Positions 40,812 to 54,384 of a DNA stretch of 64,000 bases are shown here, in pieces; within the stretch, counting starts at the first letter, position 1; every line of letters begins with the position of its first letter. The stretch is taken from IMG/VR virus record IMGVR_UViG_3300037780_000034, positions 96,001 through 160,000 of that record. One strand, written 5' to 3'. The notes beneath the pieces are model-generated. The model searched no databases. It was given only the letters and a program-made list of their open reading frames with translations, and had not been told where the DNA came from. Position numbers and translations under genes: made by a program. This stretch comes from a virus (Duplodnaviria > Caudoviricetes).

Positions 40812-40933
40812 TGCATCGTAGCTCAGAGGTAGAGCAGGTGACTGTGGATGCTAAAGGTCATAGGGTCAGTTCGATTCTGACAGCATCAACCGTAATCACT
40901 TGGTCGCAGGTTCGATCCCTGCCGATGCAGCCA
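40812..40933 (+). tRNA. tRNA-Asn(GTT) interrupted in the anticodon loop by a 47-nt tRNA-minihelix insert (40846-40892)
   Basis: Removing the insert gives GGTGA-CTGTTAA-TCACT; G73 and CCA present. Confidence 0.75.
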
Positions 40934-41014
40934 ATATTTTGTGTAATTTATTGATACAGTTACACAACTTAAAACCCAATCAAATGCGCAGTTTTGGGTC
41001 TGCGCGATATTTAA

Positions 41015-41516: not shown

Positions 41517-41645
41517 AGGATCATTTCCGCAATATTTTACTTTGCATCAGAAGCACGTGTTTGCAGGTTCAAGTCCTGCCTCCCCAACCATAATAATTGA
41601 CGGGGAGTAGGCAAATGGTAAAGCCGCGTTAAGTAATATGATCCT
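41517..41645 (+). tRNA. Circularly permuted tRNA (anticodon CAG) in WCMGCAA scaffold
   Basis: 3' part 41544-41590 (ends CCA) precedes 5' part 41601-41629; rejoined stem CGTGC/GCACG. Confidence 0.7.
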
Positions 41646-41756
41646 GTTATATACTACAGGCTAACTTTTGGGGGTTAGCTTGGTGTTACAGAAGTATAGG
41701 AAATCATTCGGAACCAAATAATGCCTATACCATTTTACGGTTCCAGCAAAACACAG

Positions 41757-41785
41757 TTGACAACCGATAGAGAATCAGCTACATT
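41757..41785 (+). promoter_or_regulatory. sigma70-type promoter with GAATC
   Basis: TTGACA-17-TACATT; GAATC at 41772. Confidence 0.7.
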
Positions 41786-41827
41786 ACAGACACTGAAAAT
41801 GAAACCACTAACAAAAGGTGAAACACT

Positions 41828-42280
41828 ATGAAGGGCATTGAAGCCAAATATACTGCTAAAGTAATTGCAAAAATGATCAAACATAATCGTTCAATTGAAC
41901 GCAAACATCAGCGTAAAAGTGAACGTGATTTCTTTGATGATGAAAGCTATGTTATTGCAAACTTTACACATAAAGAAGGAAAGAAACTTTCTTCACAATT
42001 TCGTGCATTTATGATCCATAATGCTTTTAAGAAAAATCGTGGATTTACAAGTGCAGAAGTTGCTTATTTTAACCTTGGTGAAAATTCACTGTCTACTATC
42101 AAAGAGAATAAAGAACTATATTCACGATATATGGATAGGTTTAAACGCCAGCAAAAAGCAATTAACATTGTTCGTCATAAACTTCTTGATCATAATGAAC
42201 GTGAAAGTTTTGAAAACTGGCTTAACACAAATGCAATGAATGAAACTTACTTTGACGAAAATTTCCTTCAACCTGCATAA
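41828..42280 (+). CDS. Hypothetical protein
   Basis: 150-aa ORF behind a promoter. Confidence 0.7.
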   Translation: MKGIEAKYTAKVIAKMIKHNRSIERKHQRKSERDFFDDESYVIANFTHKEGKKLSSQFRAFMIHNAFKKNRGFTSAEVAYFNLGENSLSTIKENKELYSRYMDRFKRQQKAINIVRHKLLDHNERESFENWLNTNAMNETYFDENFLQPA

Positions 42281-42286
42281 TACTGG

Positions 42287-42344
42287 TTGACACTGTTGAA
42301 AATCATTGATATAGTGTCAACAACAACAAAACGCTCTTTGACAA
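42287..42344 (+). promoter_or_regulatory. Internal promoter with second boxA
   Basis: TTGACA-17-TATAGT then CGCTCTTTGACAA at 42332. Confidence 0.65.
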
Positions 42345-42432
42345 TTTAACCATCTTCCCTATGCGAAAGCTATGATGGGATAAAAACAGACTTATTGTGT
42401 AAGATGAAGAATCTGTAAATCGCAATTGGTTG

Positions 42433-42538
42433 TCTGTTTTGAATATGATAGCACCACTTCCGAGTAATCAGATAATAACTGATTATTTCGAGTTAATTAA
42501 TAGTTTGAGCAAACGGATGCTATCATATTCAAAACAGA
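42433..42538 (+). ncRNA. Long-stem ncRNA candidate
   Basis: Perfect 21-bp inverted repeat TCTGTTTTGAATATGATAGCA. Confidence 0.5.
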
Positions 42539-42543
42539 TATAA

Positions 42544-42617
42544 GGCTCTATTGCATTGTGGAATGCAGCGGCTTCTAACCCCGTTTCAAGCAGGTTCGAC
42601 TCCTGTTAGGGCCACCA
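42544..42617 (+). tRNA. Arg-type tRNA body with ambiguous anticodon (CTA in canonical register, TCT in shifted register)
   Basis: GCGGC-TTCTAAC-CCCGT; A20; CCA. Confidence 0.7.
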
Positions 42618-42727
42618 AATAAAACCAAATGGAGAGAAAAATGTTCTAGATTTATATACCACCATAACTTCTATTGATTTAAAGTTTAAAGAAAGACCTT
42701 TACTCAAATATCAATAGGAGAAACAAA

Positions 42728-43108
42728 ATGAGTATTCAATTAAAAATTAAAAATAAACATCTTAGTGAAGAAGCACGAATCATACGTTTTGAAGAAAACA
42801 AAATCAAAAAACACGCTCGTAACGTAAGAGAACGTCAAGGGCACCAAACTGCCGATGATATAATGAAAACTTTTCAGTCACTTAGACATCATCGCAGATG
42901 GGACGTTCGTAACGAAAATCGTGCTACTTTTATTGCCAGAGCCTTCATAGAAGGAAAATCATATAAACAAGTTGAAACCAAACGTAATCCAGAGAATGAA
43001 TATACATTTATAGCGTTTGTGTTGCCAAGAGTGTTGACAATGGTAAACAAGTATGGCAATGTCCAGATAACAAAAGAAGAATTACTCAAATGGTGTAATC
43101 AAGAATAA
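42728..43108 (+). CDS. Hypothetical phage protein
   Basis: LKIKNKHLSEEARIIR...HRRWDVR.E.RA motif. Confidence 0.7.
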   Translation: MSIQLKIKNKHLSEEARIIRFEENKIKKHARNVRERQGHQTADDIMKTFQSLRHHRRWDVRNENRATFIARAFIEGKSYKQVETKRNPENEYTFIAFVLPRVLTMVNKYGNVQITKEELLKWCNQE

Positions 43109-43115
43109 CTAAAAC

Positions 43116-43192
43116 GGAAGCATAGCATAATTGGTTAATGCCCACGTCTCATAAACGTGTTTATCTTGGTTCAAGTCCAAGTGCTTCCACCA
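43116..43192 (+). tRNA. tRNA-Met/Ile2(CAT)
   Basis: CACGT-CTCATAA-ACGTG. Confidence 0.9.
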
Positions 43193-43337
43193 ATATGTTG
43201 AAACTTAATTGTCAGTCTGACGTTTCAATATTAATTAATTAATGACTGGCCAAAGGCTTGATGTGTTAAAAACCTTGTGGTGATGTAATCAAGATAAACC
43301 ACATAAACTCCTTTGTATGAAATGAAATTTCCTCTTT

Positions 43338-43394
43338 AGGATGATTACCGCAAAATTAATAAACTTTTTTTTGGTAAAAGCAGAACATCATCCT
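43338..43394 (+). ncRNA. WCMGCAA-scaffold RNA carrying a bare Gln(TTG)-type anticodon stem-loop
   Basis: AGGATGA/TCATCCT; CTTTT-TTTTGGT-AAAAG. Confidence 0.6.
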
Positions 43395-43407
43395 GATTGT
43401 GTATTGT

Positions 43408-43487
43408 GGGCGAGTGGGCAAATTGGTAAAGTCGGTTCACTCAAAATGAGAGTCATTTTGTCGGTTCGAGTCCGACCTCGCCTACCA
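43408..43487 (+). tRNA. tRNA-Leu(CAA)
   Basis: Loop CTCAAAA, variable arm, CCA. Confidence 0.85.
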
Positions 43488-43572
43488 ATTTTATCTTATG
43501 AGTTAAGATTTGTTTTAATCATTGAAGTCCCTCTACGGGCACCAACAACTATAAACACTAAAATAGAATAAT

Positions 43573-43647
43573 GCGGACATCGTATAAGGTTATTACGCTT
43601 GGCGACCAGCTAAGAAATACAGGTTAGAATCCTGTTGTCCTGCTCCA
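43573..43647 (+). tRNA. Atypical tRNA-Gly-like gene (anticodon ACC, G33, bulged acceptor)
   Basis: CTTGG-CGACCAG-CTAAG; T-loop TTAGAAT. Confidence 0.55.
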
Positions 43648-43655
43648 AATAACTG

Positions 43656-43684
43656 TTGACACTCACCAGAGAATCAACTATAGT
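43656..43684 (+). promoter_or_regulatory. sigma70-type promoter with GAATC
   Basis: TTGACA-17-TATAGT; GAATC at 43671. Confidence 0.75.
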
Positions 43685-43708
43685 AACAGTGTAAGAACTA
43701 ATACTTGT

Positions 43709-43785
43709 GGGCCTGTAGCATAATTGGTTAATGCCCAGTGCTCATAACACTGTCAATCGCGGTTCAAGTCCGTGCGGGCCTACCA
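43709..43785 (+). tRNA. tRNA-Met/Ile2(CAT)
   Basis: CAGTG-CTCATAA-CACTG. Confidence 0.9.
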
Positions 43786-43805
43786 GTATTAGTTTTTGAT
43801 TTTTT

Positions 43806-43863
43806 AGGATGACTTCCGCAAAATTATGCATTTGACCGTTAATCAAAAAAGCAAAATCATCCT
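43806..43863 (+). ncRNA. WCMGCAA-scaffold RNA carrying a bare Asn(GTT) anticodon stem-loop
   Basis: AGGATGA/TCATCCT; TTTGA-CCGTTAA-TCAAA. Confidence 0.6.
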
Positions 43864-43873
43864 GTAATAGAAT

Positions 43874-43967
43874 GGGCGCGTGGCGAAATTGGTTGAAACG
43901 CAAGGCACTTAAAATGCCTCACAGATTAGTGATCACACTGTGGGTTCGAGTCCCACCGCGCCTACCA
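43874..43967 (+). tRNA. tRNA-Leu(TAA)
   Basis: AGGCA-CTTAAAA-TGCCT; long variable arm. Confidence 0.92.
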
Positions 43968-44026
43968 AAATGTAGTAAACACAAAGAAATTTACTTCTAC
44001 TCATAAATAAGTAGAAGGAGAATTAA

Positions 44027-44467
44027 ATGAGTGATTACTTCAAAAATTATATGAACTTAACAAAAGAAAACAGACAAAGACACTTAGATATATCTTCACC
44101 TTGTGAAGAACGTGGTGGGAATAGCACAATATATAGAGGAGTCCTTGCTCAATATTTAAACACTCCTATCCCGATGGGTAGGATAGCAGTTCTGGCTCAC
44201 GCATGTAACAATAATAAATGTTCTAATCCACAGCATTTATATTGGGCGACAGACAGAGAGAATATAGTAGAAGATGGAAAAAAGTTTGGAACTTTTAAGA
44301 GTGTTTGGGAACGAATGGTAGACAAGCACGGTTATGAAGAAGCTTGTAGGCTACAAGCCAACGGTGCCCAATCAAAGGCAGGACAAGGAAACAAAGGTAA
44401 ACGAAAGTCTGAAGAACATAAGCGCAAAATATCCGAATCTTTAAAAATAAAAAATAGAAAAGAATAA
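44027..44467 (+). CDS. HNH homing endonuclease with NUMOD3-like tail
   Basis: HACNNNKCSNPQHLYWAT.REN; KSEEHKRKISES. Confidence 0.75.
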   Translation: MSDYFKNYMNLTKENRQRHLDISSPCEERGGNSTIYRGVLAQYLNTPIPMGRIAVLAHACNNNKCSNPQHLYWATDRENIVEDGKKFGTFKSVWERMVDKHGYEEACRLQANGAQSKAGQGNKGKRKSEEHKRKISESLKIKNRKE

Positions 44468-44538
44468 ATCTTCTAATAATATAAATAATTATAGAAATTT
44501 GCAACCATTATACAACTACCAAAAAGGATTAAAATGTT

Positions 44539-44661
44539 AGGATCATTACCGCAATTTTATTTGCATTTCCAGCCGTAGATGCAGGTGCAATTCCTGCTCA
44601 CCCTACCAATATAAATTATGGGGTGATCGTCTAATAGTAGGACAACGTATAATATGATCCT
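44539..44661 (+). tRNA. Circularly permuted tRNA-Glu(TTC) in WCMGCAA scaffold
   Basis: 3' part 44563-44608, 5' part 44620-44647; rejoined stem ACGGC/GCCGT; Glu-type D arm. Confidence 0.72.
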
Positions 44662-44697
44662 GTTCTTTAAAAAAAAGAAAGTTAATTTAAGTTTTTT

Positions 44698-44815
44698 AGA
44701 TTATGTTCAGCAAACCATATAAATTATATGAAAGCCTATCAACGTTGCCGGAAGGCCCGTATGGCAAACCCAGTTTTCGATTTTCTGGTTCTATAAAAAA
44801 GTAGACACATAATCT
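44698..44815 (+). ncRNA. WCMGCAA-scaffold RNA with long-variable-arm-like and T-arm-like hairpins
   Basis: AGATTATGT/ACATAATCT; TTCAGCAA. Confidence 0.5.
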
Positions 44816-44823
44816 GTAATAAT

Positions 44824-44900
44824 TGCGGGGTAGACTGGAGAGGTACCCAGCACGGTCTCATAAGCCGATCACGGCGGTTCGAATCCGCCCCCCGCAACCA
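44824..44900 (+). tRNA. Initiator-like tRNA-Met(CAT)
   Basis: TGCGGGG/CCCCGCA acceptor; loop CTCATAA. Confidence 0.85.
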
Positions 44901-44985
44901 TTTTTATAAAATGATAATTCCCTTTATTTTTACGAGTTTCCTTTCCGAGTAAAAATATCAAGGTTGAGTTATCATTTTATAAAAA
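44901..44985 (+). ncRNA. Long-stem hairpin ncRNA candidate
   Basis: TTTTTATAAAATGATAATT/AGTTATCATTTTATAAAAA. Confidence 0.45.
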
Positions 44986-45164
44986 TGAGGATATAAATTA
45001 TGGATAAAGAAATACAAGATTTTATAGATTTTTGGAAAGAAAAAGATGTAAAATTACCAAATCCACAAAATTATCCAAAATCTTTTGAATGGTATGTTAC
45101 AATGTGGAAATATCACACAAAATAATATTATAAATACCTATGTAAGTTAACATAGGAGATAATA

Positions 45165-45809
45165 ATGTCATTAATAAGAATTCAACAAATACTAAAAGAT
45201 ATGAACCACGATCCAGGTCCAATTGATGGATTATGGGGAAGCAGAACAAAAGCTGCATTAGAAAGTTTAATACAATGGGAAGGAAAACCAGTAACGGTTA
45301 CTTCCAATTCATCTGATGATGATTTACCTTGGATGATAGAAGGAAAAAAAGTATTTGGGTTTCACGAAGTTAGAAATAATAGTGAATTAAGAAAATGGTT
45401 AAGAAGTGATGGTGCTACTCTTGGTGATCCAAAAGCACTTCCCTGGTGTGGTGATTTTACCGAGACTGCTATAAAAAACTCATTACCAACTGAACCTTTT
45501 ACTGGTAGAATGCTTGAAAATCCATATTGGGCAAGAAATTGGCTTGAATTTGGTCGTGCATCGCCTGCTATATATGGATGCATAGGCGTTTTTAGTAGAG
45601 GCACAGGAGGTCACGTTGGTTTCTTGGTAGGTGAAGATGCAACAGACTATTATGTTTTTGGTGGAAATCAAAGCGATAGTGTTAATATAGTAAGAATAGA
45701 TAAAAAACGTTTACTGGGAACAAGATGGCCATTGACTTACAATATTGTTAATACACCATTACCTAAAAGAGACCCAAAAACTGTAATCAAATCAGTTAAT
45801 GAAATATAA
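45165..45809 (+). CDS. Endolysin-like protein: PG-binding domain plus TIGR02594/NlpC-CHAP-like amidase
   Basis: PGPIDGLWGSRT; PWCG, ARNW, GHVGF, GGNQ; TATAAATA at 45129. Confidence 0.8.
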   Translation: MSLIRIQQILKDMNHDPGPIDGLWGSRTKAALESLIQWEGKPVTVTSNSSDDDLPWMIEGKKVFGFHEVRNNSELRKWLRSDGATLGDPKALPWCGDFTETAIKNSLPTEPFTGRMLENPYWARNWLEFGRASPAIYGCIGVFSRGTGGHVGFLVGEDATDYYVFGGNQSDSVNIVRIDKKRLLGTRWPLTYNIVNTPLPKRDPKTVIKSVNEI

Positions 45810-45818
45810 GGAAAAGTT

Positions 45819-46055
45819 ATGAAAATAGTATTTGCCCAAGGTGCATTTGATGATTTTGATGGAACACAAGAAGAACTTGATAACCTTCTTTCGGAATTAA
45901 AAGAAATGATTGAAAGTGGTTCACTTATGGAAAAAAGTGAACCAGTGGATTTAGACTTATTGCAAGAAGAAAATCCAGAAATATATGAAAAAATTATGAA
46001 GTTTGATAGTTTAGATCAAGATACGTTTGAAAATACTAAAAATAAACTCCATTAA
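45819..46055 (+). CDS. Hypothetical acidic protein
   Basis: FAQGAFDDFDGTQEELD motif. Confidence 0.6.
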   Translation: MKIVFAQGAFDDFDGTQEELDNLLSELKEMIESGSLMEKSEPVDLDLLQEENPEIYEKIMKFDSLDQDTFENTKNKLH

Positions 46056-46059
46056 TTTT

Positions 46060-46138
46060 GGCCCCATCGTCTACGCTGGTGTTAGGATACTCGGCTTTCA
46101 TCCGAGAGAAGTCGGTTCAATTCCGTCTGGGGCTACCA
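46060..46138 (+). tRNA. tRNA-Glu(TTC)
   Basis: CTCGG-CTTTCAT-CCGAG. Confidence 0.9.
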
Positions 46139-46145
46139 AAATAAT

Positions 46146-46231
46146 GTGTCGGTGGGTGAGCGGTTTAAACCACCTGACTGTAAATCAGGCGCTGAAAAGC
46201 AACGCTAGTTCGAATCTAGCCCGACACACCA
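46146..46231 (+). tRNA. tRNA-Tyr(GTA)
   Basis: CCTGA-CTGTAAA-TCAGG; variable arm. Confidence 0.92.
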
Positions 46232-46273
46232 AATATTATGAGTGCAAAGTTACAAGCACTCAAAACAAATCTT

Positions 46274-46350
46274 GTGCGTGTGTAGCTGAATGGTTAAGCG
46301 CAGGATTGCAAATCCTGATTATGTTGGTTCGAGTCCAATCACGCACTCCA
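46274..46350 (+). tRNA. tRNA-Cys(GCA)
   Basis: CAGGA-TTGCAAA-TCCTG; U73. Confidence 0.88.
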
Positions 46351-46389
46351 ATATAGTCTACTCTAATAAATAATAAAAAAGGTAAAAAA

Positions 46390-46560
46390 ATGGAAATATC
46401 TGATAGGATTGAATCTTTAAAAGCAAAACATCGTGAACTTGATAGTAGGATTGAAGTTCTGTATGCTGAAAGAGTAGACGAAAAGTATATAACTTCTCTA
46501 AAAAAAGAAAAGTTAAAGATAAAAGAAGAAATTACTAAGTTACAAAATAGCTTAGTATAA
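46390..46560 (+). CDS. DUF465/YdcH-like small coiled-coil protein (not in ORF track)
   Basis: MEISDRIESLKAKHRELD...LKKEKLKIKEEI. Confidence 0.65.
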   Translation: MEISDRIESLKAKHRELDSRIEVLYAERVDEKYITSLKKEKLKIKEEITKLQNSLV

Positions 46561-46568
46561 AATAATTT

Positions 46569-46652
46569 AGGAATATTTCAGCAAATTTATCTTGGATAAA
46601 ACATTGTTCTCAAAAACAAAGTGAAGTGGTTCAAATCCACATCAATATTCCT
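46569..46652 (+). ncRNA. WCMGCAA-scaffold tRNA mimic (D-like, anticodon-like and T arms; no CCA)
   Basis: AGGAATAT/ATATTCCT; TTGTT-CTCAAA-AACAA; GTGG-TTCAAAT-CCAC. Confidence 0.55.
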
Positions 46653-46663
46653 GACTAATATCT

Positions 46664-46773
46664 TGGAACATTACCGCAACTATAACATAAACAATGGGTT
46701 ACAGGTTCAAATCCTGTCTTTTACAGTTTGTAAAAGTAGTTCAATGGTAGAACAATTGTCAAAAAATGTTCCA
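46664..46773 (+). tRNA. Degenerate circularly permuted tRNA (anticodon CAT) in WCMGCAA scaffold
   Basis: 3' part ~46684-46725, 5-nt linker, 5' part 46730-46759; GTAAAAG/CTTTTAC acceptor; no encoded CCA. Confidence 0.6.
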
Positions 46774-46782
46774 GTATTTTAT

Positions 46783-46856
46783 GGGGGATTAGTTCAATGG
46801 TAGAACAGGTGCTTTACGCGCATCATACAGCAGTTCGATTCTGTTATCCCCTACCA
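46783..46856 (+). tRNA. tRNA-Val(TAC)
   Basis: GGTGC-TTTACGC-GCATC. Confidence 0.9.
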
Positions 46857-46871
46857 ATATTAGGAAAAAAT

Positions 46872-47309
46872 ATGAATAATAAATGGGATTTAAGATTTTT
46901 AGAATTAGCAAAACATATTGCAGAATGGTCAAAAGACCCAAGCACAAAAGTTGGGTGTGTAATAGTAAGACCAGATAAAACTATTGCGTCTGTTGGTTAC
47001 AATGGATTTCCACGTGGTGTTAATGATGAACCAGAAAGATATAATAATCGTGAGATAAAATATCTTATGGTAAAACACGCAGAAGAGAATGCAGTATACA
47101 GTTCAAAAGAATCATTGACTGGATATACGGCGTATGTTACACACTATCCGTGTTCTAGTTGCACAGGAACACTAATACAAAATGGAATAAAAAGAATTGT
47201 AACACAAAAACCAGATGATAGTTTTGCTTCAAGGTTTCGTGATAGTTTTGAATCATCAAAAATAATGATTAATGAAACTGGTATAGAATTAGTTTTAATA
47301 GAAGATTAA
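46872..47309 (+). CDS. dCMP deaminase
   Basis: SKDPSTKVG, GYNGFPRG, HAEEN, PCSSC. Confidence 0.9.
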   Translation: MNNKWDLRFLELAKHIAEWSKDPSTKVGCVIVRPDKTIASVGYNGFPRGVNDEPERYNNREIKYLMVKHAEENAVYSSKESLTGYTAYVTHYPCSSCTGTLIQNGIKRIVTQKPDDSFASRFRDSFESSKIMINETGIELVLIED

Positions 47310-47311
47310 AT

Positions 47312-47396
47312 GGGCTAGTGTTGAAATAGGTAGACAATGCGCACTTAGAATGCGTTGCCGAAAGGCGTGGGGGTTCAAGTCCCTCCTAGCCTACCA
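47312..47396 (+). tRNA. tRNA-Leu(TAG)
   Basis: GCGCA-CTTAGAA-TGCGT; variable arm. Confidence 0.92.
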
Positions 47397-47415
47397 TTAT
47401 TGAAAGGATACAAAA

Positions 47416-47588
47416 TGAAAAACAAAATAAAAACACCTAAACCACGAAATGAATATGCAATTTCTGCAAGGTTTAGAACAGGTGCTGGTCCTATGCAAAA
47501 ATCTAAGAAAGCACAGAGACAACAAGATAAAATTGCTTTAAAGAAAAAAGGTAAAGACTACTTTAACAATAGAGAAACTATTCTTTAA
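47416..47588 (+). CDS. Small basic hypothetical protein
   Basis: KPRN.YA...GAG motif; start after the tRNA. Confidence 0.55.
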
Positions 47589-47735
47589 GTAGTCTTGTTT
47601 TATAATATATGAAAGGATATAATATGTTTACATTAATAGTAGGAATAGTAATTGGTGCTTTCATTGGTTGGAATTTTCCACAACCAGAGTTTGCTAGAAA
47701 TATTCAAAATAAGATAAAAAATATTCTAAAATAAT

Positions 47736-48509
47736 GCCACGGTAGCTCAGTCCGGTAGAGCATACAGGTTTGTAAAATAGTAAATATCTAAAAAGGATAT
47801 TTACTATGATTAGAAATAAAATAGAATGTAAAAAATGTGAAAGATTGATAAGTTTATCAAATCATAAAAGACATACACAATCCTGTAATGGCAAAAAAGT
47901 ATCTTCAAACAAAACTATTGAAGAAAATCATATTGATTGGAAAACAATACAAGAAGATTATGACAATGGATTAACATACCGTGGAATAACAGAAAAATAC
48001 AAAATATGTCAACAATCAATATCAAATGCGAGAAAAAAAGGTCTGTTAAAAACACGTTCTAAATCAGAAGCCTCTAAACTTTATTATAAAAATAATACAC
48101 CAAACATAATGAGCGATGAGGCCAGAAAAAGAATTTCTGAAAAAATGTCCGAACATAATCACGGCGGAAGAAGTAAATGGTTTGAGATAGATGGGAAGAA
48201 AGTCCAAGGAACTTGGGAGCTTAACTTTGCCAAATTTTGCAAAGAGAACAACATAGAATGGCAAAGATGCAAACCTTGGAAATATAAAATGGATAAAAAA
48301 ATAAGAAGCTATACACCAGACTTTTATATTCCAAGCAAAAAATTATTTATAGAAATAAAAGGTCATTGGTGGGGAGATGATAGAAGAAAAATGAACTGTG
48401 TAATAGAACAACATCCTGATAAAAACATTCTTATAATAGAAAAAGAGATATACGAACAGATGCTAGATGGAAAATTAGAATGGTGATTCGAATTCACATC
48501 GTGGCACCA
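47736..48509 (+). pseudogene. tRNA-Thr(TGT)-like gene split by an endonuclease gene
   Basis: 5' part GCCACGG...TTTGTAA (47736-47775); 3' part GTGA-TTCGAAT-TCAC-A-TCGTGGC-A-CCA (~48483-48509). Confidence 0.65.
47806..48486 (+). CDS. PD-(D/E)xK-type (TnsA/DUF559-like) putative homing endonuclease
   Basis: QGTWEL, YTPDFY, IEIKG; N-terminal Zn/HTH region. Confidence 0.7.
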   Translation: MIRNKIECKKCERLISLSNHKRHTQSCNGKKVSSNKTIEENHIDWKTIQEDYDNGLTYRGITEKYKICQQSISNARKKGLLKTRSKSEASKLYYKNNTPNIMSDEARKRISEKMSEHNHGGRSKWFEIDGKKVQGTWELNFAKFCKENNIEWQRCKPWKYKMDKKIRSYTPDFYIPSKKLFIEIKGHWWGDDRRKMNCVIEQHPDKNILIIEKEIYEQMLDGKLEW

Positions 48510-48512
48510 TAG

Positions 48513-48605
48513 TTTTATGATACACTGTCCGCAACAGGTCTTGATGGGGTAGCTTACGAGCAAGCCAAAGTGTAGGTGTAAGTCCTACCGCAGTGTATCA
48601 TAAAA
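48513..48605 (+). ncRNA. WCMGCAA-scaffold RNA with 15-bp stem and T-arm
   Basis: TTTTATGATACACTG/CAGTGTATCATAAAA; TCCGCAA; GTAGG-TGTAAGT-CCTAC. Confidence 0.55.
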
Positions 48606-48615
48606 ATATAAATAT

Positions 48616-48692
48616 TGTTCTGTAGCACAATTGGTTTAGTGCAGGCGACTGATAATCGTCAGATTCAAGTTCAAATCTTGACAGAACAACCA
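48616..48692 (+). tRNA. tRNA-Ile(GAT)
   Basis: GGCGA-CTGATAA-TCGTC. Confidence 0.92.
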
Positions 48693-48701
48693 ACAAATTT
48701 A

Positions 48702-48777
48702 TGGTAGAAGGGAAATTGGCGACCGACCGCACTTTGAATGCGTGTTATTGTAAGTTCGAATCTTACTCTACCAACCA
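48702..48777 (+). tRNA. tRNA-Gln(TTG)
   Basis: CGCA-CTTTGAA-TGCG; U1-A72. Confidence 0.85.
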
Positions 48778-48799
48778 ATATAAAGTAAAAATGAAATAC

Positions 48800-48884
48800 G
48801 GACAAGTGCCCGAGAGGACAAAGGGAACTGACTTTTAATCAGTCGCTATATGCTACGTGGGTTCGAATCCCACCTTGTTCACCA
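48800..48884 (+). tRNA. tRNA with Lys(TTT) anticodon on a Tyr-like type II body
   Basis: ACTGA-CTTTTAA-TCAGT; D arm CCCGAGAGGACAAAGGG; long variable arm. Confidence 0.85.
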
Positions 48885-48962
48885 AAATATGGTCGAATCA
48901 GATTGACATATACAGTCAACTATGCTATTGTATAGTATATTCAATGAAAGAAAGATATTACT

Positions 48963-49409
48963 ATGAAAATTGAATACCGTCAAGGCGATCTATTTAAAAC
49001 AGAGATTAAAACAATTGTTCACGGATGCAATGCGCAAGGTGTTATGGGGTCTGGGGTTGCGAATATAATTCGTGAACAATATCCAGAAGCATATGAGCGT
49101 TATCGTAATGAGTATGAAAAACATAATTATCTAAAGCTTGGTGATATCATATCAGTTCCTTGTAATTACAAGTTTATTGTAAACGCTATTACACAAGAGT
49201 ATTTTGGGCGTGACAATAAACGATATGTTAGCTATGATGCAGTAGATGACGTTATGGTAAAGTTAAATAAATTTTACGATATATACGGTATTTCAGAAAT
49301 TGCTATGCCAAAAATTGGTGCTGGTTTAGGAAATGGTTCTTGGGAAGTGATAGAAGCAATCATAGAGAATCGTCTTGACACCGTGAAACCAGTAGTGTAT
49401 ACTATGTGA
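48963..49409 (+). CDS. Macro domain ADP-ribosylhydrolase-like protein
   Basis: GDLF, HGCNAQGVMGSGVA, MPKIGAGLGNG.W. Confidence 0.88.
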   Translation: MKIEYRQGDLFKTEIKTIVHGCNAQGVMGSGVANIIREQYPEAYERYRNEYEKHNYLKLGDIISVPCNYKFIVNAITQEYFGRDNKRYVSYDAVDDVMVKLNKFYDIYGISEIAMPKIGAGLGNGSWEVIEAIIENRLDTVKPVVYTM

Positions 49410-49420
49410 TATGAAATAAT

Positions 49421-49497
49421 CTCCACGTAGCTCAACTGGACAGAGCGAGTGACTTCTAATCACTAGGTTGAGGGTTCGATTCCTTCCGTGGAGGCCA
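49421..49497 (+). tRNA. tRNA-Arg(TCT)
   Basis: AGTGA-CTTCTAA-TCACT. Confidence 0.93.
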
Positions 49498-49561
49498 TTT
49501 CTTATACTACCTTATACCCTACTAACAGGTATAAATACCTATGAACTAGGAGAATACTATA

Positions 49562-49957
49562 ATGAGCATTTCAAACCAAAAAGGTGATATAGGGGAAGCA
49601 CATTTTGTTTTAAGGGCTACTGAAAAGGGATATTGGACTGGAAAAATGCCACAAGACTGCCCTTATGATTTTGTATTGGATAGAGGAAAAGGATTAGAGC
49701 GTGTTCAGGTAAAATACAGGTCTAGTGCAAAAAAAGGTTCAATACAAATTAATTCCTTTAATTCAAGTCCGCAATCAAATAGAACATATAACGGTTTCGT
49801 TGATCAATTTGCAGTATATAACCCAGAAACATCAGAAGTATATCTTATTCCAGCTAATTTAGTAATGGAATCTGGTGCTTCTATTTTTAGAGTAGAATAT
49901 CCTAAAAATAATCAACTAAAAGGTGTAACTTTTCTTTCTGAATTCAAAGAATGGTAG
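49562..49957 (+). CDS. PD-(D/E)xK endonuclease (intron-associated PDDEXK_5-like)
   Basis: KGDIGE, YDFVLD, RVQVKY; TATAAATA at 49530. Confidence 0.75.
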   Translation: MSISNQKGDIGEAHFVLRATEKGYWTGKMPQDCPYDFVLDRGKGLERVQVKYRSSAKKGSIQINSFNSSPQSNRTYNGFVDQFAVYNPETSEVYLIPANLVMESGASIFRVEYPKNNQLKGVTFLSEFKEW

Positions 49958-49980
49958 TTCGAATCTTACTTGCAGCACCA
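49953..49980 (+). pseudogene. Orphan tRNA 3' fragment (T arm, acceptor strand, CCA) overlapping the endonuclease stop
   Basis: GTAG-TTCGAAT-CTTAC-TTGCAGC-A-CCA. Confidence 0.55.
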
Positions 49981-50096
49981 ATAAAAATATTGTATTGAAC
50001 CCCACTATTCATATGCTGAGTGTTTTAGACCTGACACTGTGAAGCGAATATGCGTTCAATACCTGCTAGGGGAATTGGTCCCTCCTAGTCAGTTTT

Positions 50097-50170
50097 GGCC
50101 CCTTGGTATATGGATATTACGCTCGGCTGTCTACCGGGAAAAACGGGTTTGAGTCCCGTAGGGGTCGCCA
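50097..50170 (+). tRNA. tRNA-Asp(GTC)
   Basis: CTCGG-CTGTCTA-CCGGG; G73. Confidence 0.9.
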
Positions 50171-50171
50171 A

Positions 50172-50575
50172 TATAGACTGTGACGTAATCGGCCCTTGTG
50201 AGGAACGCTCCCGTAACCAGTCGGGTTAAAGTTGCAAACAACCCAGTCTATAAAATAAAGTCCTATGTCCGACTTACCGATTTTGGTATTTTGGCTTAGG
50301 CACCAGTTTGATCTAGATACTTTTATTTTTGGAGCAAGAGTAGTCGTGTGTGATGATAAAAATGAAAGTCGTTTCAATGCTAGACAACATTCGGTTCAAG
50401 GACGTGCGAACCAGTATTATGACACCTGCACGTTGACCCTGAAACCAGTGTGCAGCATTATACGATGGGTAACAGTCTGGAGAGTGACAGACATATATGC
50501 GAAAAGGGTTTTTAGTAGTATGTGGTAATTCTTAAACCCTGAAATATCCATTAAGATCGTCGGTAGGCCACATAT
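50172..50575 (+). ncRNA. ~400-nt structured ncRNA region
   Basis: Several stems (ATAGACTG/CAGTCTAT, GGTTC/GAACC, CTGCAC/GTGCAG, AGGGTTT/AAACCCT) and a possible pseudoknot TATGTGG/CCACATA. Confidence 0.45.
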
Positions 50576-50577
50576 TT

Positions 50578-50652
50578 GGGGGATTGGTGAAATCAGGATC
50601 ACGTAGGTGTTGCATACCTAAATTATCGGGGCAGGTCCGATATCCTCCACCA
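50578..50652 (+). tRNA. tRNA-Ala(TGC) with atypical T-loop
   Basis: G3-U70, A73; TAGGT-GTTGCAT-ACCTA; T-loop GGCAGGT. Confidence 0.8.
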
Positions 50653-50812
50653 TATAAATAAAGGATATGTTATGATTGGTTTAATATTTTTATCATTTAG
50701 TCCATTGTTTTTGATAGCATCAAATGACTATTTTGGTAAAATTTCTTCTATAATTTGTGCTGTTATTGGCATAACCATAATAACTATATCTCTGTTAATG
50801 TAAGGAATAAAA

Positions 50813-51142
50813 ATGTCATATGAAAAACCACTTCCTAAACCATTATATCCGCCAGTTGACCAAGGTTCACTAAAAGCTTTTGAATATTACAAAGAATTTA
50901 TAGAATATCTTGGAGCAAAGCCGGTAAATCATACTGAAATAGAAAATGGTGATACCACAAGTTTAGAACATTTGTTATGGATGTGTAATCATTGTATACC
51001 AAGAATTCGTGATGATGGATTAGGATTTAATGTTTCTAAGTATTCACGATGGTTAGGATACATACAAGGTTGTTTAATTTGTAAAGGTTACACAAGTGTA
51101 GCACAAGAAAGAGACAGAACAAGAAACTTTTTTAATGAATAA
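50813..51142 (+). CDS. Hypothetical phage protein
   Basis: HLLWMC...KYSRWLGYIQG. Confidence 0.65.
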   Translation: MSYEKPLPKPLYPPVDQGSLKAFEYYKEFIEYLGAKPVNHTEIENGDTTSLEHLLWMCNHCIPRIRDDGLGFNVSKYSRWLGYIQGCLICKGYTSVAQERDRTRNFFNE

Positions 51143-51148
51143 TCTTTT

Positions 51149-51367
51149 TGGATCAGTTCAGCAAACAATATTTCCGTGAAAAGGACCGTGACGGTGGTGC
51201 AAATCCGCCCTTCCCCGCCACAGATACACTATGACAACATAGACGGGTTAATCGCCGTAGGAACGAAGCAGTTTCCAAACCAACGATAGGAAGAGTTTGT
51301 CGTCTTCTGTAGTGTATCTTTGACGGGGAAGTAGCTCAGTTAGTAGAGCAGGTAAAAAGTTGATCCA
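51149..51367 (+). tRNA. Circularly permuted tRNA-Phe(GAA) in WCMGCAA scaffold; linker holds another hairpin RNA
   Basis: 3' part 51174-51220, 5' part 51325-51353; rejoined 76 nt with stem GGTCC/GGACC. Confidence 0.75.
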
Positions 51368-52152: not shown

Positions 52153-52241
52153 AGGGGTGCGCCAACGTTGGAGTGTTGGGCTGGTCTCCAAAACCAGTGT
52201 TTGAAAAAACTTAGTGAGTTCGAATCTCATCACCTTTGCCA
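52153..52241 (+). tRNA. tRNA-Trp(CCA) with long variable arm
   Basis: CTGGT-CTCCAAA-ACCAG; G73. Confidence 0.85.
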
Positions 52242-53607: not shown

Positions 53608-54276
53608 TCAAGACAAAGGTAACTGGATGGAAATATAAATTTGTGATATTTCTAATTCAATTATTTTTTTTTGTTCTTCTAATTTTTTAATTTTTTTATT
53701 TATATTATCCAACTTTTTTTCTAATAATAATTTTTCTTTTTTTTTATTTTCGTTTATCTTTTTATCATATGATTTCCAAGAAACAATTCTTTTTTTAATA
53801 TATCCATTTTCAAGGTATGTTTCAATTTCTTCTGGTTTTACCTTGCAGCAGTGGCGTTCTTTTATATTGCTCATCCAAATTGTCCCATATTGACTATTGC
53901 CTTTTCCTGTTTGCGATTCGGACATTATGATACCTATATTTTTTCTTGCTCTTTCATATAGTCTTGTATTGACATATCTTTTTTGTGAGGATGATGAAGA
54001 ATACATACAAGTGAATGCTCTTACAACCTTTTTCCATCCATAACTTCCTTCATTAAGCATTTTGCAAAGCAAGTAATGACATAAAAAATGTTCACGAGCA
54101 GTGAGAAGAACAAGATTATTATTTTCGTCGGAGCCTCCGAGAGATTTTGGAATTATATGATGATTTTCGTAATAAACGTATGATTTATGCGTTGACCTTC
54201 TTTTTATTCTTCCGTTGATTTTTGCATTTTGTATTATTTTATAATATAATTTTGTATACTTATTAGTTAAAAACAT
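53608..54276 (-). CDS. HNH homing endonuclease
   Basis: ENHHIIPKSLGGSD...LVLLTAREHFLCH; likely ATG at 54276. Confidence 0.8.
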   Translation of the reverse strand: MFLTNKYTKLYYKIIQNAKINGRIKRRSTHKSYVYYENHHIIPKSLGGSDENNNLVLLTAREHFLCHYLLCKMLNEGSYGWKKVVRAFTCMYSSSSSQKRYVNTRLYERARKNIGIIMSESQTGKGNSQYGTIWMSNIKERHCCKVKPEEIETYLENGYIKKRIVSWKSYDKKINENKKKEKLLLEKKLDNINKKIKKLEEQKKIIELEISQIYISIQLPLS

Positions 54277-54384
54277 ATTTACGAACCTCTTTTTTATTTT
54301 ATTTATAAAATTTATGGGTTCGCAGAATCCTTGAACACTATTGAATAGTTTGGTAATTTGGATGACGATAGAGGAACCAATAAA

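What the first reader, a model, noticed from the sequence alone, without database searches (positions are those of the whole stretch)
44539..44661. Circularly permuted tRNA-Glu(TTC) with an unambiguous 29|30 break
Seen: the 3' part (44563-44608, ending ACCA), an 11-nt AT linker and the 5' part (44620-44647). Rejoined, the stem is a perfect ACGGC/GCCGT around ATTTCCA. The flanking bases allow no register shift, so the junction is fixed between 29 and 30. The D arm ATCGTCTAATAGTAGGAC matches the colinear tRNA-Glu at 46060. A32, C37 and T-loop TGCAATT are non-canonical. Established: UGC in place of TPsiC occurs in non-proteinogenic staphylococcal tRNA-Gly. Inference: a non-ribosomal role is possible.
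Basis: partly seen in the sequence, partly recalled or inferred. Interest (0 to 1): 0.8.

Follow-up and report, generated by a model that had tools for sequence, protein, structure and literature searches.

The report
Phage Y-like RNA with permuted tRNA-Glu
The flagged 121 bases are a real small-RNA gene of a giant pond phage: a complete glutamate tRNA with its two halves in swapped order. It is mounted on a conserved stem-plus-ACCGCAA "handle" that marks an uncatalogued family of phage RNAs found next to a Ro60-like ring protein gene, so it is more likely a tRNA mimic of the Y-RNA type than a working tRNA.

Summary
Joining 44620-44647 to 44563-44608 gives a 74-nt cloverleaf that ARAGORN calls tRNA-Glu(TTC). 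The break is fixed at 29|30. None of six shuffled windows gave such a locus.

It is not a lone oddity. It is one of nine same-strand elements (41518-51367) that share a covarying terminal stem and a 5'-side WCMGCAA motif. Four of them carry permuted tRNA bodies (anticodons CAG, TTC, CAT, GAA).

A covariance model built only from 13 such RNAs of other phages, including Felix O1 and mycobacteriophage GuuelaD, finds this locus at 59.6 bits (E 8e-12).

The phage encodes a DUF2828/DUF7788 protein whose model matches only Ro60/TROVE structures. A bare handle hairpin lies in that gene's 5' leader. Handle RNAs flank homologous genes in all seven cultured phages I checked.

My best reading (0.6): a Y-RNA-like partner of that protein, closest to YrlA, probably opened by RNase P at its 7-bp acceptor stem with encoded ACCA. 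Binding, processing and expression are inferred, not shown.

A truly matured permuted tRNA is not excluded (about 0.1).

The T loop TGCAATT is a recurrent phage tRNA variant that covaries with the D loop. It is not a sign of a non-ribosomal role.

The scan found this RNA family before on other DNA.

The parts
44538..44546 (+). 5' strand of the terminal 'handle' stem (TA + GGATCAT)
   Evidence: Pairs with 44654-44662 (9 bp, the outermost a U.G). The helix covaries across 16 family members (6 of 7 pairs have changes on both sides).
44547..44554 (+). Handle motif T-ACCGCAA (family consensus WCMGCAA), unpaired, next to the 5' strand of the stem
   Evidence: Present in all 9 window copies and in handle RNAs of other phages. 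C10, G12, C13, A14 and A15 are invariant in alignment A3.
44555..44562 (+). Leader spacer. TTAT (44557-44560) can pair with ATAA (44649-44652) of the trailer.
   Evidence: Read from the sequence. The equivalent leader/trailer helix of sister element E1 covaries with its relative L165 (TTACTT/AAGTAA against ATTTGC/GCAAAT).
44563..44576 (+). tRNA positions 30-43: G30 C31, anticodon loop ATTTCCA (anticodon TTC at 44567-44569), 3' strand GCCGT
   Evidence: ARAGORN cloverleaf of the rejoined sequence
44577..44580 (+). 4-nt variable loop AGAT (A46 present, no residue 47, as in tRNA-Glu)
   Evidence: Glu identity set from PMC9976931.
44581..44597 (+). T arm GCAGG-TGCAATT-CCTGC (G at position 55)
   Evidence: The TGC T loop covaries with an AG D loop in colinear phage tRNAs.
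44598..44608 (+). Acceptor 3' strand TCACCCT, then discriminator A and encoded CCA
44609..44619 (+). 11-nt A/T linker closing the acceptor stem as a loop. RNase P would be expected to cut at its 3' end.
   Evidence: Sequence. The cut is inferred from M. smegmatis YrlA (PMC4201824).
44620..44647 (+). tRNA positions 1-29: acceptor 5' strand GGGGTGA, T8 C9, D arm GTCT-AATAGTA-GGAC (U11-A24, U13.G22), A26, ACG (27-29)
44648..44653 (+). Trailer spacer TATAAT
44654..44662 (+). 3' strand of the handle stem (ATGATCC + TG). The family ends in CCTG(T/A).
41518..41644 (+). Sister element E1: same handle, permuted tRNA with anticodon CAG, C1xA72, encoded ACCA, break 29|30
   Evidence: Model R1 gives 67.4 bits. 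Relatives L171, L173 and L165 carry compensatory changes.
46665..46772 (+). Sister element E7: same handle, permuted tRNA-like body (CAT, A33) with a closed 5-nt acceptor loop and no CCA
   Evidence: Rfam YrlA 31.5 bits, below its threshold. R1 gives 78.9 bits.
51149..51367 (+). Sister element E9: same handle, permuted tRNA-Phe(GAA), encoded GCCA, 104-nt structured linker, T loop TGCAAAT
   Evidence: R1 gives 55 bits.
43339..43393 (+). Sister element E2: short handle RNA (55 nt)
   Evidence: R1 gives 28.5 bits.
43806..43863 (+). Sister element E3: short handle RNA showing a hairpin with a 7-nt anticodon-like loop CCGTTAA
   Evidence: R1 gives 19.4 bits.
44699..44814 (+). Sister element E5, 38 nt downstream of the finding: handle GATTATG/CATAATC + TCAGCAA, other cargo
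   Evidence: Weak Rfam Dicty_Class_I_RNA match, 21.2 bits.
46570..46651 (+). Sister element E6: handle + TCAGCAA, cargo with a T-arm-like hairpin
48521..48597 (+). Sister element E8: handle TACACTG/CAGTGTA + TCCGCAA, cargo with a T-arm-like hairpin

Best explanation
The locus encodes a roughly 121-125-nt non-coding RNA. It is cut out of the polycistronic tRNA-array transcript, and its two ends pair into a 9-bp stem followed by the unpaired motif ACCGCAA. This 'handle' is the shared module of a widespread phage RNA family. It is most likely the docking site for the phage's Ro60-like ring protein (DUF2828 + DUF7788, 475 aa, about 52 kb upstream in the same genome). The RNA would then be the counterpart of a Y RNA, closest to YrlA. 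The cargo held out by the handle is a whole tRNA-Glu in rotated order: the handle enters the anticodon stem between 29 and 30, and the acceptor stem is closed by an 11-nt loop. Because that stem has 7 bp and is followed by an encoded ACCA, RNase P and 3' trimming probably open it, as shown for Mycobacterium smegmatis YrlA. That would give a two-piece, tRNA-shaped RNA with an intact anticodon loop. Its likely job is to act as a tRNA look-alike for the ribonucleoprotein, for example to bring a tRNA-binding enzyme or a host tRNA-directed nuclease to the Ro60-like protein, or to bait it. It is unlikely to decode GAA in translation. Shown here: the structure, family membership, the Ro60-like fold of the protein, and the gene-RNA co-occurrence. 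Inferred: binding, processing, expression and biological role.
For: Family. There are nine same-strand copies of stem + WCMGCAA within 10 kb of the tRNA array, against about 5 weak hits in the other 308 kb on both strands. The same module occurs in tRNA arrays of unrelated IMG/VR phages and in metagenome contigs.

Membership. Model R1, built only from 13 tRNA-like handle RNAs of other phages, hits 44540-44660 end to end at 59.6 bits, E 8e-12. No colinear tRNA scores above 17.4 bits.

Structure. In a 16-sequence alignment, 94.5% of cells pair, against 40-48% when the partners are slid. 21 of 23 pairs have changes on both sides, and 0 of 500 shuffles reach the observed values.

Protein.
- P0001 matches Pfam DUF2828 + DUF7788.
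- Its AlphaFold2 model has pLDDT 82.5.
- The 13 best Foldseek PDB hits are all Ro60/TROVE (9kop, 9l5y phage phiLo Ro60, 1yvr, 2nvo Rsr), with E from 4e-8 to 4e-4 and TM from 0.41 to 0.60.
- Homologues in mycobacteriophages are annotated 'Ro-like RNA binding protein'.

Linkage.
- A bare handle hairpin lies 20 nt upstream of the P0001 start codon. The same is seen in G004, and about 170 nt upstream in G001.
- All 4 handle-bearing records that are at least 22% complete, the window's own genome among them, encode the protein.
- Handle RNAs flank the gene on the same strand in 7 of 7 cultured phages checked: Felix O1, GuuelaD, Vibrio R11Z, Campylobacter F355, phiM12, Staphylococcus S-CoN_Ph9 and Listeria LP-125.

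Precedent. YrlA has the same order of T arm, closed acceptor and D arm inside an end-to-end stem with a short 5' motif. M. smegmatis YrlA is cut by RNase P and receives CCA (PMC4201824). The preprint PMC11482910 reports Bas63 gp130 as Ro60-like and suspected Y RNAs among the neighbouring tRNA genes. I did not align P0001 to gp130 itself; its Felix O1 homologue ORF86 is 41% identical.

Against a decoding role. C37 replaces the strong GluRS determinant A37. A canonical colinear tRNA-Glu(TTC) lies at 46060. Most tRNA-like relatives have closed acceptor hairpins without CCA.
Against: No binding, processing or expression data exist for this RNA. The Ro60-like gene is about 52 kb from the array in this genome, not adjacent. 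Pfam TROVE does not match the protein. The motif ACCGCAA differs from YrlA's GNCGAAN0-1G, and Rfam YrlA does not hit this locus. The locus keeps features that a mere mimic would not obviously need: a 7-bp acceptor stem, encoded ACCA, a perfect anticodon arm with U33, and most Glu identity elements (U34 U35 C36, U11-A24, U13.G22, A46, no residue 47). In the sister element E1, the ACCA and a Leu anticodon (CAG or TAG) are kept in relatives whose helices have diverged. No relative of the Glu element itself was found, so its own conservation is untested. According to the preprint, Bas63 gp130 counters the ppl defence when expressed alone, so the protein may not need these RNAs for that activity.
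Confidence: 0.6

Rival explanations
1. A genuine circularly permuted tRNA gene. The handle is a processing cassette. RNase P and 3' trimming free the acceptor ends. An endonuclease removes leader and trailer exactly at 29|30, and a phage RNA ligase seals the nick in the anticodon stem, giving a working tRNA-Glu(UUC).
For: The rejoined sequence is a full cloverleaf with encoded ACCA, U33 and a matching Glu-type body. The break lies at 29|30, or within a base of it, in E1, E4, E9 and in L147 (Thr) and L161 (Lys) from metagenomes. E9 would supply Phe, for which the genome has no colinear tRNA. The phage encodes an Rnl2-like and a T4 Rnl1-like RNA ligase. Rnl2 enzymes seal nicks in duplex RNA (established knowledge). 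The elbow variant A18/G55 is the one used by colinear phage tRNAs.
Against: There is no bulge-helix-bulge at the junction: it is a 4-bp helix with 2-nt and 1-nt bulges and a 10/1 internal loop. The phage has no splicing endonuclease or RtcB gene. The same handle carries cargo that can never become a tRNA, such as 50-60-nt hairpins and tRNA bodies with closed acceptor loops. C37 is non-canonical. A normal tRNA-Glu(TTC) lies 1.4 kb away. The handle is linked to a Ro60-like gene, not to a nuclease.
Confidence: 0.12
2. A stand-alone tRNA decoy or bait that works without the Ro60-like protein. The handle only gives nuclease resistance or defines the ends. The displayed tRNA or anticodon arm soaks up a host anticodon nuclease, a tRNA-modifying enzyme or a synthetase.
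For: Short family members display anticodon-like stem-loops, such as Lys-like CTTTTAA-type loops, Thr CTTGTAA and Tyr CTGTAAA. Anticodons match the tRNA body in the long members. Anticodon loop and CCA are conserved in E1 relatives. Phages are known to answer tRNA-cleaving defences with their own tRNAs (established knowledge).
Against: It does not explain why a bare handle sits in the 5' leader of the Ro60-like gene in several phages, nor why handle RNAs flank that gene in 7 of 7 cultured phages. I know of no defence that targets tRNA-Glu(UUC) in bacteria.
Confidence: 0.15
3. A non-functional by-product of recombination between tRNA genes and mobile handle elements (a pseudogene).
For: The region is rich in homing-endonuclease-like ORFs and in odd tRNA chimeras, such as the tRNA-Asn with a nested minihelix. 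No relative of the Glu element itself was found.
Against: All 21 cloverleaf pairs and the 9 handle pairs are intact. The elbow pair covaries correctly. The sequence is identical in a second pond metagenome contig. Sister elements are conserved with compensatory changes. The score to an independent family model is high.
Confidence: 0.05

Closest known systems
YrlA (Y RNA-like A; Rfam RF02553) with Ro60/Rsr, in Salmonella, Mycobacterium smegmatis and mycobacteriophages (Chen et al. 2014, PMC4201824)
   Same: The ends pair into a stem, with a short conserved motif next to its 5' strand. The cargo is a tRNA-like domain in the order T arm, closed acceptor stem, D arm. The partner is a Ro60-type ring protein. 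M. smegmatis YrlA, which has a 7-bp acceptor stem, is cut by RNase P and gets CCA.
   Different: The motif is WCMGCAA, not GNCGAAN0-1G. Rfam YrlA gives no hit on this locus. The partner protein is DUF2828/DUF7788, not Pfam TROVE, and lies about 52 kb away. The cargo includes a complete anticodon arm with a sense anticodon and an encoded ACCA. There are many copies per genome, interleaved with tRNAs.
Circularly permuted tRNA genes of Cyanidioschyzon merolae, other algae and Thermofilum (from my own knowledge: Soma et al. 2007; Chan et al. 2011)
   Same: The 3' half lies upstream of the 5' half, joined by a short linker after CCA or the acceptor end. Leader and trailer pair. The rejoined sequence is a standard cloverleaf.
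   Different: Those use a bulge-helix-bulge motif, the splicing endonuclease and a circular intermediate. None of these is seen here. None is known from bacteria or phages.
Bas63 gp130 (Felixounavirus), a Ro60-like counter-defence protein against ppl (PhageMaP preprint PMC11482910)
   Same: Probably the same protein family as P0001: Felix O1 ORF86, from the same genus, is 41% identical over the full length. I did not align gp130 itself. The gene sits beside a tRNA array, and the authors guessed that some of the 'tRNAs' are Y RNAs.
   Different: The partner RNAs were not identified there. gp130 worked when expressed alone.
Two-piece (permuted) tmRNA of alpha-proteobacteria and cyanobacteria (Rfam RF04321)
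   Same: A permuted gene in which the T arm and CCA end precede the acceptor 5' strand. The mature RNA stays in two base-paired pieces.
   Different: There is no tag reading frame and no pseudoknots. The Rfam score is 14.1 bits against a threshold of 47.
Dictyostelium Class I RNAs (Rfam RF01414; Kjellin et al. 2021, PMC7919456)
   Same: A short covarying stem joins the ends, an 11-nt motif lies next to the 5' strand, the interior is variable, and the 3' end is CUGU. The phage handles end in CCUGU/CCUGA.
   Different: They are eukaryotic and 42-65 nt long, without tRNA cargo. The Rfam model does not reach its threshold on any copy here (best 21.2 bits on 44699-44816).

Membership tests
Phage 'CAGCAA-handle' RNAs that accompany DUF2828 Ro60-like genes (not in Rfam) | Terminal stem joining the 5' and 3' ends, with structure conserved rather than sequence | tested here: met
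   9 bp, 44538-44546 with 44654-44662. Across 16 members, 6 of 7 stem pairs have changes on both sides.
Phage 'CAGCAA-handle' RNAs that accompany DUF2828 Ro60-like genes (not in Rfam) | Unpaired motif WCMGCAA directly 3' of the stem's 5' strand | tested here: met
   T-ACCGCAA at 44547-44554
Phage 'CAGCAA-handle' RNAs that accompany DUF2828 Ro60-like genes (not in Rfam) | Recognised by a covariance model built from members of other phages | tested here: met
   R1: 59.6 bits, E 8e-12, model positions 1-117
Phage 'CAGCAA-handle' RNAs that accompany DUF2828 Ro60-like genes (not in Rfam) | A DUF2828/DUF7788 Ro60-like gene in the same genome | tested here: met
   P0001 at genome 85209-86636, Ro60 fold, with a handle hairpin in its leader
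Phage 'CAGCAA-handle' RNAs that accompany DUF2828 Ro60-like genes (not in Rfam) | Physical binding of the handle by the Ro60-like protein | not testable with these tools
   Inferred only from co-occurrence and from the Ro60/Y RNA analogy
YrlA (Rfam RF02553) | Score at or above the Rfam gathering threshold (69 bits) | tested here: not met
   No YrlA hit at E up to 10 on 44480-44720. The sister element E7 reaches 31.5 bits.
YrlA (Rfam RF02553) | GNCGAAN0-1G motif near the 5' end (Ro60 contact) | tested here: not met
   The motif here is ACCGCAA. The YrlA definition is from PMC4201824.
YrlA (Rfam RF02553) | tRNA-like domain: T arm, acceptor-like stem-loop and D arm inside the end-to-end stem | tested here: met
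YrlA (Rfam RF02553) | Encoded within about 4 kb of a TROVE-domain Ro60 gene, on the same strand | tested here: not met
   No Pfam TROVE match in the genome. The Ro60-like DUF2828 gene is on the same strand but about 52 kb upstream.
Circularly permuted tRNA genes (algal/archaeal type) | 3' half upstream of 5' half, and the rejoined sequence is a canonical cloverleaf | tested here: met
   ARAGORN tRNA-Glu(ttc), 74 nt
Circularly permuted tRNA genes (algal/archaeal type) | Bulge-helix-bulge motif formed by leader and trailer at the junction | tested here: not met
   Leader and trailer form only TTAT/ATAA with 2-nt and 1-nt bulges, then a 10/1 internal loop
Circularly permuted tRNA genes (algal/archaeal type) | A splicing endonuclease and a ligase are available | tested here: inconclusive
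   No tRNA_int_endo and no RtcB gene in the phage. Rnl1-like and Rnl2-like ligases are present. The host is unknown.
Circularly permuted tRNA genes (algal/archaeal type) | A circular intermediate or a mature RNA with 29 joined to 30 | not testable with these tools
   No RNA run is listed for this phage
Functional tRNA-Glu (E. coli identity set, PMC9976931) | U34, U35, C36, A37; U11-A24; U13-G22:A46; no residue 47; G1-C72; U2-A71 | tested here: inconclusive
   Present: U34, U35, C36, U11-A24, U13.G22, A46, 4-nt variable loop. Absent: A37 (C here), G1-C72 (G.U here), U2-A71 (G-C here)..
Dictyostelium Class I RNA (RF01414) | Score at or above the Rfam threshold (41.5 bits) | tested here: not met
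   No hit on this locus. The neighbouring element E5 scores 21.2 bits.

The most novel reading that the evidence does not exclude
The three handle RNAs of this phage that keep a 7-bp acceptor stem and an encoded NCCA (anticodons CAG, TTC, GAA) are true permuted tRNA genes. After RNase P and 3' trimming, the handle is excised at 29|30 and the nick in the anticodon stem is sealed by the phage's own Rnl2/Rnl1-type ligase, giving working tRNAs. These would be the first permuted tRNA genes outside eukaryotes and archaea, and they would use a maturation route without a bulge-helix-bulge motif.
Probability: 0.1. Interest if true: 0.92.

Novelty: new variant of a known kind. Interest (0 to 1): 0.68.

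Why it matters
Y RNAs and Ro60 are well studied in animals and in a few bacteria. What the tRNA-like half of bacterial Y RNAs is for remains open.

This phage, and many others, carry a whole set of such RNAs on one conserved handle. The cargo ranges from bare anticodon arms to complete, correctly folded tRNAs of defined identity. That makes the question testable: which tRNA-binding factor is being recruited or baited? It also gives the published Ro60-like anti-defence proteins of Felix O1-type phages candidate RNA partners.

These elements are invisible to tRNA finders and to Rfam, so phage tRNA arrays are currently under-annotated.

If the minority reading were right, it would add a new way of making tRNAs in the bacterial world.

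Tried and rejected
Expression. No RNA holder is listed for this phage. Laying four DNA runs gave no variant inside 44540-44660 and no informative joint.

Relatives of the Glu element.
- The pattern GGATCATTWCMGCAA...ATGATCC in viral contigs and metagenome contigs found relatives of E1 and other cargo, but not of this one.
- A T-arm pattern found only colinear tRNAs.
- Neighbour-protein loci were distant phages without handles.
- The genome search cannot reach metagenome records.

The first degenerate pattern scan returned almost only chance matches; 1 of 122 loci was real.

Rfam. No family reaches its threshold on the locus. The weak hits (tmRNA_permuted 14.1 bits, IsrR, RAGATH-26) were rejected.

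Genes looked for in the phage genome and not found: TROVE, RtcB, VWA_2 and tRNA splicing endonuclease. TROVE was also absent from five other handle-bearing records.

Readings considered and dropped.
- A box C/D-like reading of GGATGAT...CTGA was dropped because the stem is fully Watson-Crick paired.
- A MITE or attC-type DNA repeat was dropped because of the strand-specific motif and the covariation.
- I recognised no small self-cleaving ribozyme motif, and Rfam reported none.

No promoter-like site lies directly upstream; the nearest strong one is at 43656-43684. phmmer of P0001 against PDB sequences gave nothing; only the fold search did. I did not use complex prediction, because it does not take RNA.
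Full report
**What is there.** On the + strand, 44563-44608 holds tRNA positions 30-76 and ends in ACCA. An 11-nt A/T linker follows, and 44620-44647 holds positions 1-29. Joined in tRNA order, the 74 nt are called tRNA-Glu(ttc) by ARAGORN. The cloverleaf has a 7-bp acceptor stem (G1.U72), a 4-bp D stem, a perfect ACGGC/GCCGT anticodon stem around ATTTCCA, and a 5-bp T stem. The junction cannot shift, because the next base on either side would give a T.C mismatch.

**Is it chance?** I wrote a scan for a T arm, a 3' acceptor strand, a linker of up to 120 nt, a complementary 5' acceptor strand and a D arm. It completes the anticodon arm across every possible break and passes the candidates to ARAGORN.
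- After discarding chimeras with colinear tRNAs, the real window gives four loci, all on the + strand. Their T arms start at 41563, 44581, 46701 and 51193.
- Six dinucleotide-preserving shuffles of the whole window, about 130,000 candidates each, give none.
- The 127-nt precursor folds with z = -3.46.

**The context that changes the reading.** All four loci share flanks: a terminal stem (GGATCAT/ATGATCC, GGAACAT/ATGTTCC or GGATCA/TGATCC) and, right after its 5' strand, T-WCMGCAA.
- Searching for that module finds nine copies between 41518 and 51367. All are on the tRNA strand and their stem sequences differ but stay complementary. The remaining 308 kb of the 317.7-kb phage genome gives about five weak hits on both strands.
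- The cargo varies. Four copies hold permuted tRNA bodies with anticodons CAG, TTC, CAT and GAA. Two are short RNAs of 55-58 nt, one with an anticodon-like loop. Three hold other structures, two of them with T-arm-like hairpins.

**The same module elsewhere.** It occurs in tRNA arrays of unrelated IMG/VR phages and in metagenome contigs.
- Short members often show anticodon-like 7-nt loops, of Lys UUU, Thr UGU and Tyr GUA type.
- Long members are permuted tRNA-like bodies. Most of them have a closed acceptor hairpin without CCA.
- A 16-sequence alignment of tRNA-like members gives a consensus of handle stem, T arm, acceptor hairpin and D arm. In it 94.5% of cells pair, against 40-48% for slid partners, and 21 of 23 pairs show changes on both sides. 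One caveat applies: the handle stems, and partly the acceptor stems, were selected for pairing by my search. The T and D arms were not.
- A covariance model built from 13 members of other phages only retrieves, in this window, exactly E7 (78.9 bits), E1 (67.4), the finding (59.6 bits, E 8e-12, full length) and E9 (55). Next come the short E2 (28.5 bits), an unrelated 27.0-bit match at 40873-40981 inside the tRNA-Asn minihelix region, and the short E3 (19.4 bits). Colinear tRNAs stay at or below 17.4 bits.

**The partner.** The topology is that of YrlA (PMC4201824), so I looked for a Ro60 gene.
- Pfam TROVE, RtcB and VWA_2 are absent.
- Following a lead from earlier notes of this scan, I searched for DUF2828 and found a 475-aa protein at genome position 85209-86636 with DUF2828 + DUF7788.
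- Its AlphaFold2 model has mean pLDDT 82.5. The 13 best PDB matches are all Ro60/TROVE structures, with E from 4e-8 to 4e-4 and TM from 0.41 to 0.60 over the whole length. Only vWA domains follow.
- Homologues occur in 710 GenBank phage records, including Felix O1 ORF86 (41% identity) and mycobacteriophage proteins annotated 'Ro-like RNA binding protein'.

**Linkage of handle and gene.**
- In this genome, a bare 34-nt handle hairpin lies 20 nt upstream of the start codon of the Ro60-like gene, behind a TTGACA promoter-like box.
- An equivalent hairpin precedes the gene in G004. A handle RNA lies about 170 nt upstream in the complete 424-kb phage G001, where the handle and tRNA array runs straight into the gene.
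- Of the five other handle-bearing records, the three that are at least 22% complete encode the protein; the window's own genome makes four. The two records without it are 7-10% fragments.
- In seven cultured phages from Salmonella, Mycobacterium, Vibrio, Campylobacter, Sinorhizobium, Staphylococcus and Listeria hosts, one to four handle RNAs sit directly beside the gene on its strand. There were 0-1 hits on the other strand. In Vibrio R11Z the hairpin encloses the ribosome-binding site and start codon.
- This pattern is what one expects of a protein and its RNA ligands, including feedback on its own messenger. It does not show binding.

**What the tRNA part says.** The body is of Glu type.
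- It has U11-A24, U13.G22, A46, a 4-nt variable loop and U34 U35 C36.
- It has C37 where A37 is a strong GluRS determinant, and G1.U72 / G2-C71 in place of the weak determinants G1-C72 / U2-A71.
- The T loop TGCAATT is not aberrant in this setting. In 324 distinct colinear tRNAs from the phage loci fetched here, a TGC T loop always goes with an AG (no GG) D loop (24 of 24), and TTC goes with GG (208 of 211). The TGC set is enriched by my search pattern, but the D-loop association is independent of it. The finding and E9 both have the matched pair, so the elbow is intact.
- A canonical colinear tRNA-Glu(TTC) lies at 46060.

**Conservation.**
- The Glu element is identical in a contig of a second pond metagenome run.
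- I found no diverged relative of it.
- For its sister E1, three relatives exist. They keep ACCA and a Leu anticodon (CAG or TAG). They show compensatory changes in the acceptor stem, at anticodon-stem pair 30:40 (G-C to C-G) and in the leader/trailer helix (TTACTT/AAGTAA to ATTTGC/GCAAAT). Pair 1:72 switches between C.A and U.G.
- The break at 29|30 recurs in E1 and the finding, in E9 (28|29 or 29|30), and in permuted Thr and Lys elements of other contigs.
- So the whole architecture is under selection, including the anticodon arm and, in this subgroup, the CCA end.

**How it most likely works.** The element has no promoter of its own. The nearest strong + strand promoter-like site is at 43656-43684, so it would be cut from a polycistronic transcript.
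- I propose that the ends are defined by the handle stem, and that the Ro60-like protein binds the stem and the adjacent unpaired ACCGCAA, as Ro60 binds the conserved helix and 5' strand of Y RNAs.
- The tRNA body projects from a three-way junction in the anticodon stem.
- RNase P then cuts before G44620 and the 3' side is trimmed to CCA at 44608, as documented for M. smegmatis YrlA. The result is a two-piece tRNA look-alike.
- A helix leaving the anticodon stem at 29/30 should be incompatible with the ribosomal decoding sites. That is an inference from tRNA-ribosome structures.
- Together with C37 and the redundant colinear gene, this makes a decoding role unlikely unless the handle is removed.
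- The cargo more plausibly recruits or baits a tRNA-recognising factor for the ribonucleoprotein. The neighbouring T4 Rnl1-like ligase gene, the published anti-defence role of the Felix O1-type Ro60-like protein Bas63 gp130 and the anticodon-arm cargo of short members point to tRNA damage or tRNA-directed host defence as the arena. This last step is speculation.

**Rivals.**
- True permuted tRNA maturation is not excluded, since ligases are present. It lacks a bulge-helix-bulge motif and an endonuclease, and it does not explain the non-tRNA cargo on the same handle.
- A protein-independent decoy does not explain the handle in the Ro60-like gene's leader.
- A pseudogene is contradicted by the intact and covarying structure.

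**Novelty.** Rfam 15 has no family for these RNAs. I found no paper that describes them. The PhageMaP preprint only guessed that Y RNAs hide among Bas63 tRNA genes. The kind (Ro60-type protein plus a tRNA-like Y RNA) is known, while the handle, the protein branch, the multi-copy cargo display and the complete permuted tRNA with encoded CCA are new variants. Earlier follow-ups of this scan reached similar conclusions on other genomes. Here I re-derived the main points independently: family, Ro60-like fold and gene linkage.

Noticed in passing
L133:952-985 (genome C1:85155-85188, outside the window): A bare 34-nt handle hairpin (GAATGAT-A-ACAGCAA-12 nt-ATCATTC) sits between a TTGACA promoter-like box and the ribosome-binding site of the Ro60-like DUF2828 gene. 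Equivalent hairpins precede the gene in G004. In Vibrio phage R11Z the hairpin encloses the start codon. This suggests autoregulation.
   Followed up: partly
window 44586-44592 with 44633-44639; 51198-51204; colinear tRNAs in L179-L203: An alternative tRNA elbow in phage tRNAs. A T loop TGC (G55) always co-occurs with a D loop that has AG instead of GG (24 of 24), while TTC goes with GG (208 of 211). TTT T loops tend to go with GA-type D loops. This looks like covariation of the 18:55 and 19:56 tertiary pairs.
   Followed up: partly
window 40812-40933: A tRNA-Asn(GTT) whose anticodon loop carries a 47-nt insert that folds as an acceptor-like stem plus a T arm (a minihelix). Rfam tRNA gives 54.5 bits across the insert, and ARAGORN misses it without intron mode.
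   Followed up: partly
window 42544-42617: A suppressor tRNA with anticodon CTA (ARAGORN labels it 'Pyl'). The same kind occurs in several related arrays (L123, L126, L128, L142). TAG may be read as a sense codon in late genes.
   Followed up: no
window 41518-41644 against L171, L173, L165: The permuted CAG element has C1xA72 here but U1.G72 in two relatives and U1-A72 in a third. One relative has anticodon TAG instead of CAG. The body has a short variable loop although the anticodons are those of Leu.
   Followed up: partly
L130:9300-9472 and L130:9694-9823 (complete 424-kb phage G001): In these handle RNAs the tRNA body is opened in the anticodon loop rather than at 29|30. One is a class II Leu(TAG)-like body. 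The other is a Glu-like body (CTC) on the same GGATCAT stem with a closed acceptor hairpin. The entry point of the handle varies between lineages.
   Followed up: partly
window 43575-43640 and 52153-52240: Two further odd tRNA-like genes that ARAGORN's default run misses. One has a 5-nt 'anticodon' loop (Rfam tRNA 33.4 bits). The other is a Trp(CCA)-like tRNA with an extra arm and no encoded CCA (Rfam tRNA-Sec 35.7 bits, below threshold).
   Followed up: no
genome C1:83269-83679 (+) and C1:36694-37191 (-): A T4 Rnl1-like RNA ligase gene lies 1.5 kb upstream of the Ro60-like gene, and an Rnl2-like ligase lies elsewhere. No RtcB was found. This may be an RNA-repair neighbourhood.
   Followed up: no
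all handle copies, e.g. window 44660-44664 and 43391-43397: Handle RNAs end in CCUGU/CCUGA and start near (U)UAGG/AAGG. Like the stem plus the motif next to its 5' strand, this recalls Dictyostelium Class I RNAs (start AAG, end CUGU). The literature search on DUF2828 returned mainly plant papers. Whether amoebae pair Class I RNAs with such a protein was not tested.
   Followed up: no
window 44027-44467, 47806-48486, 49562-49957, 53608-54390: The tRNA and handle array is interleaved with weak HNH, endonuclease I-like and PD-(D/E)XK nuclease ORFs, plus a dCMP deaminase (46797-47309) and a macro-domain protein (48963-49409).
   Followed up: partly
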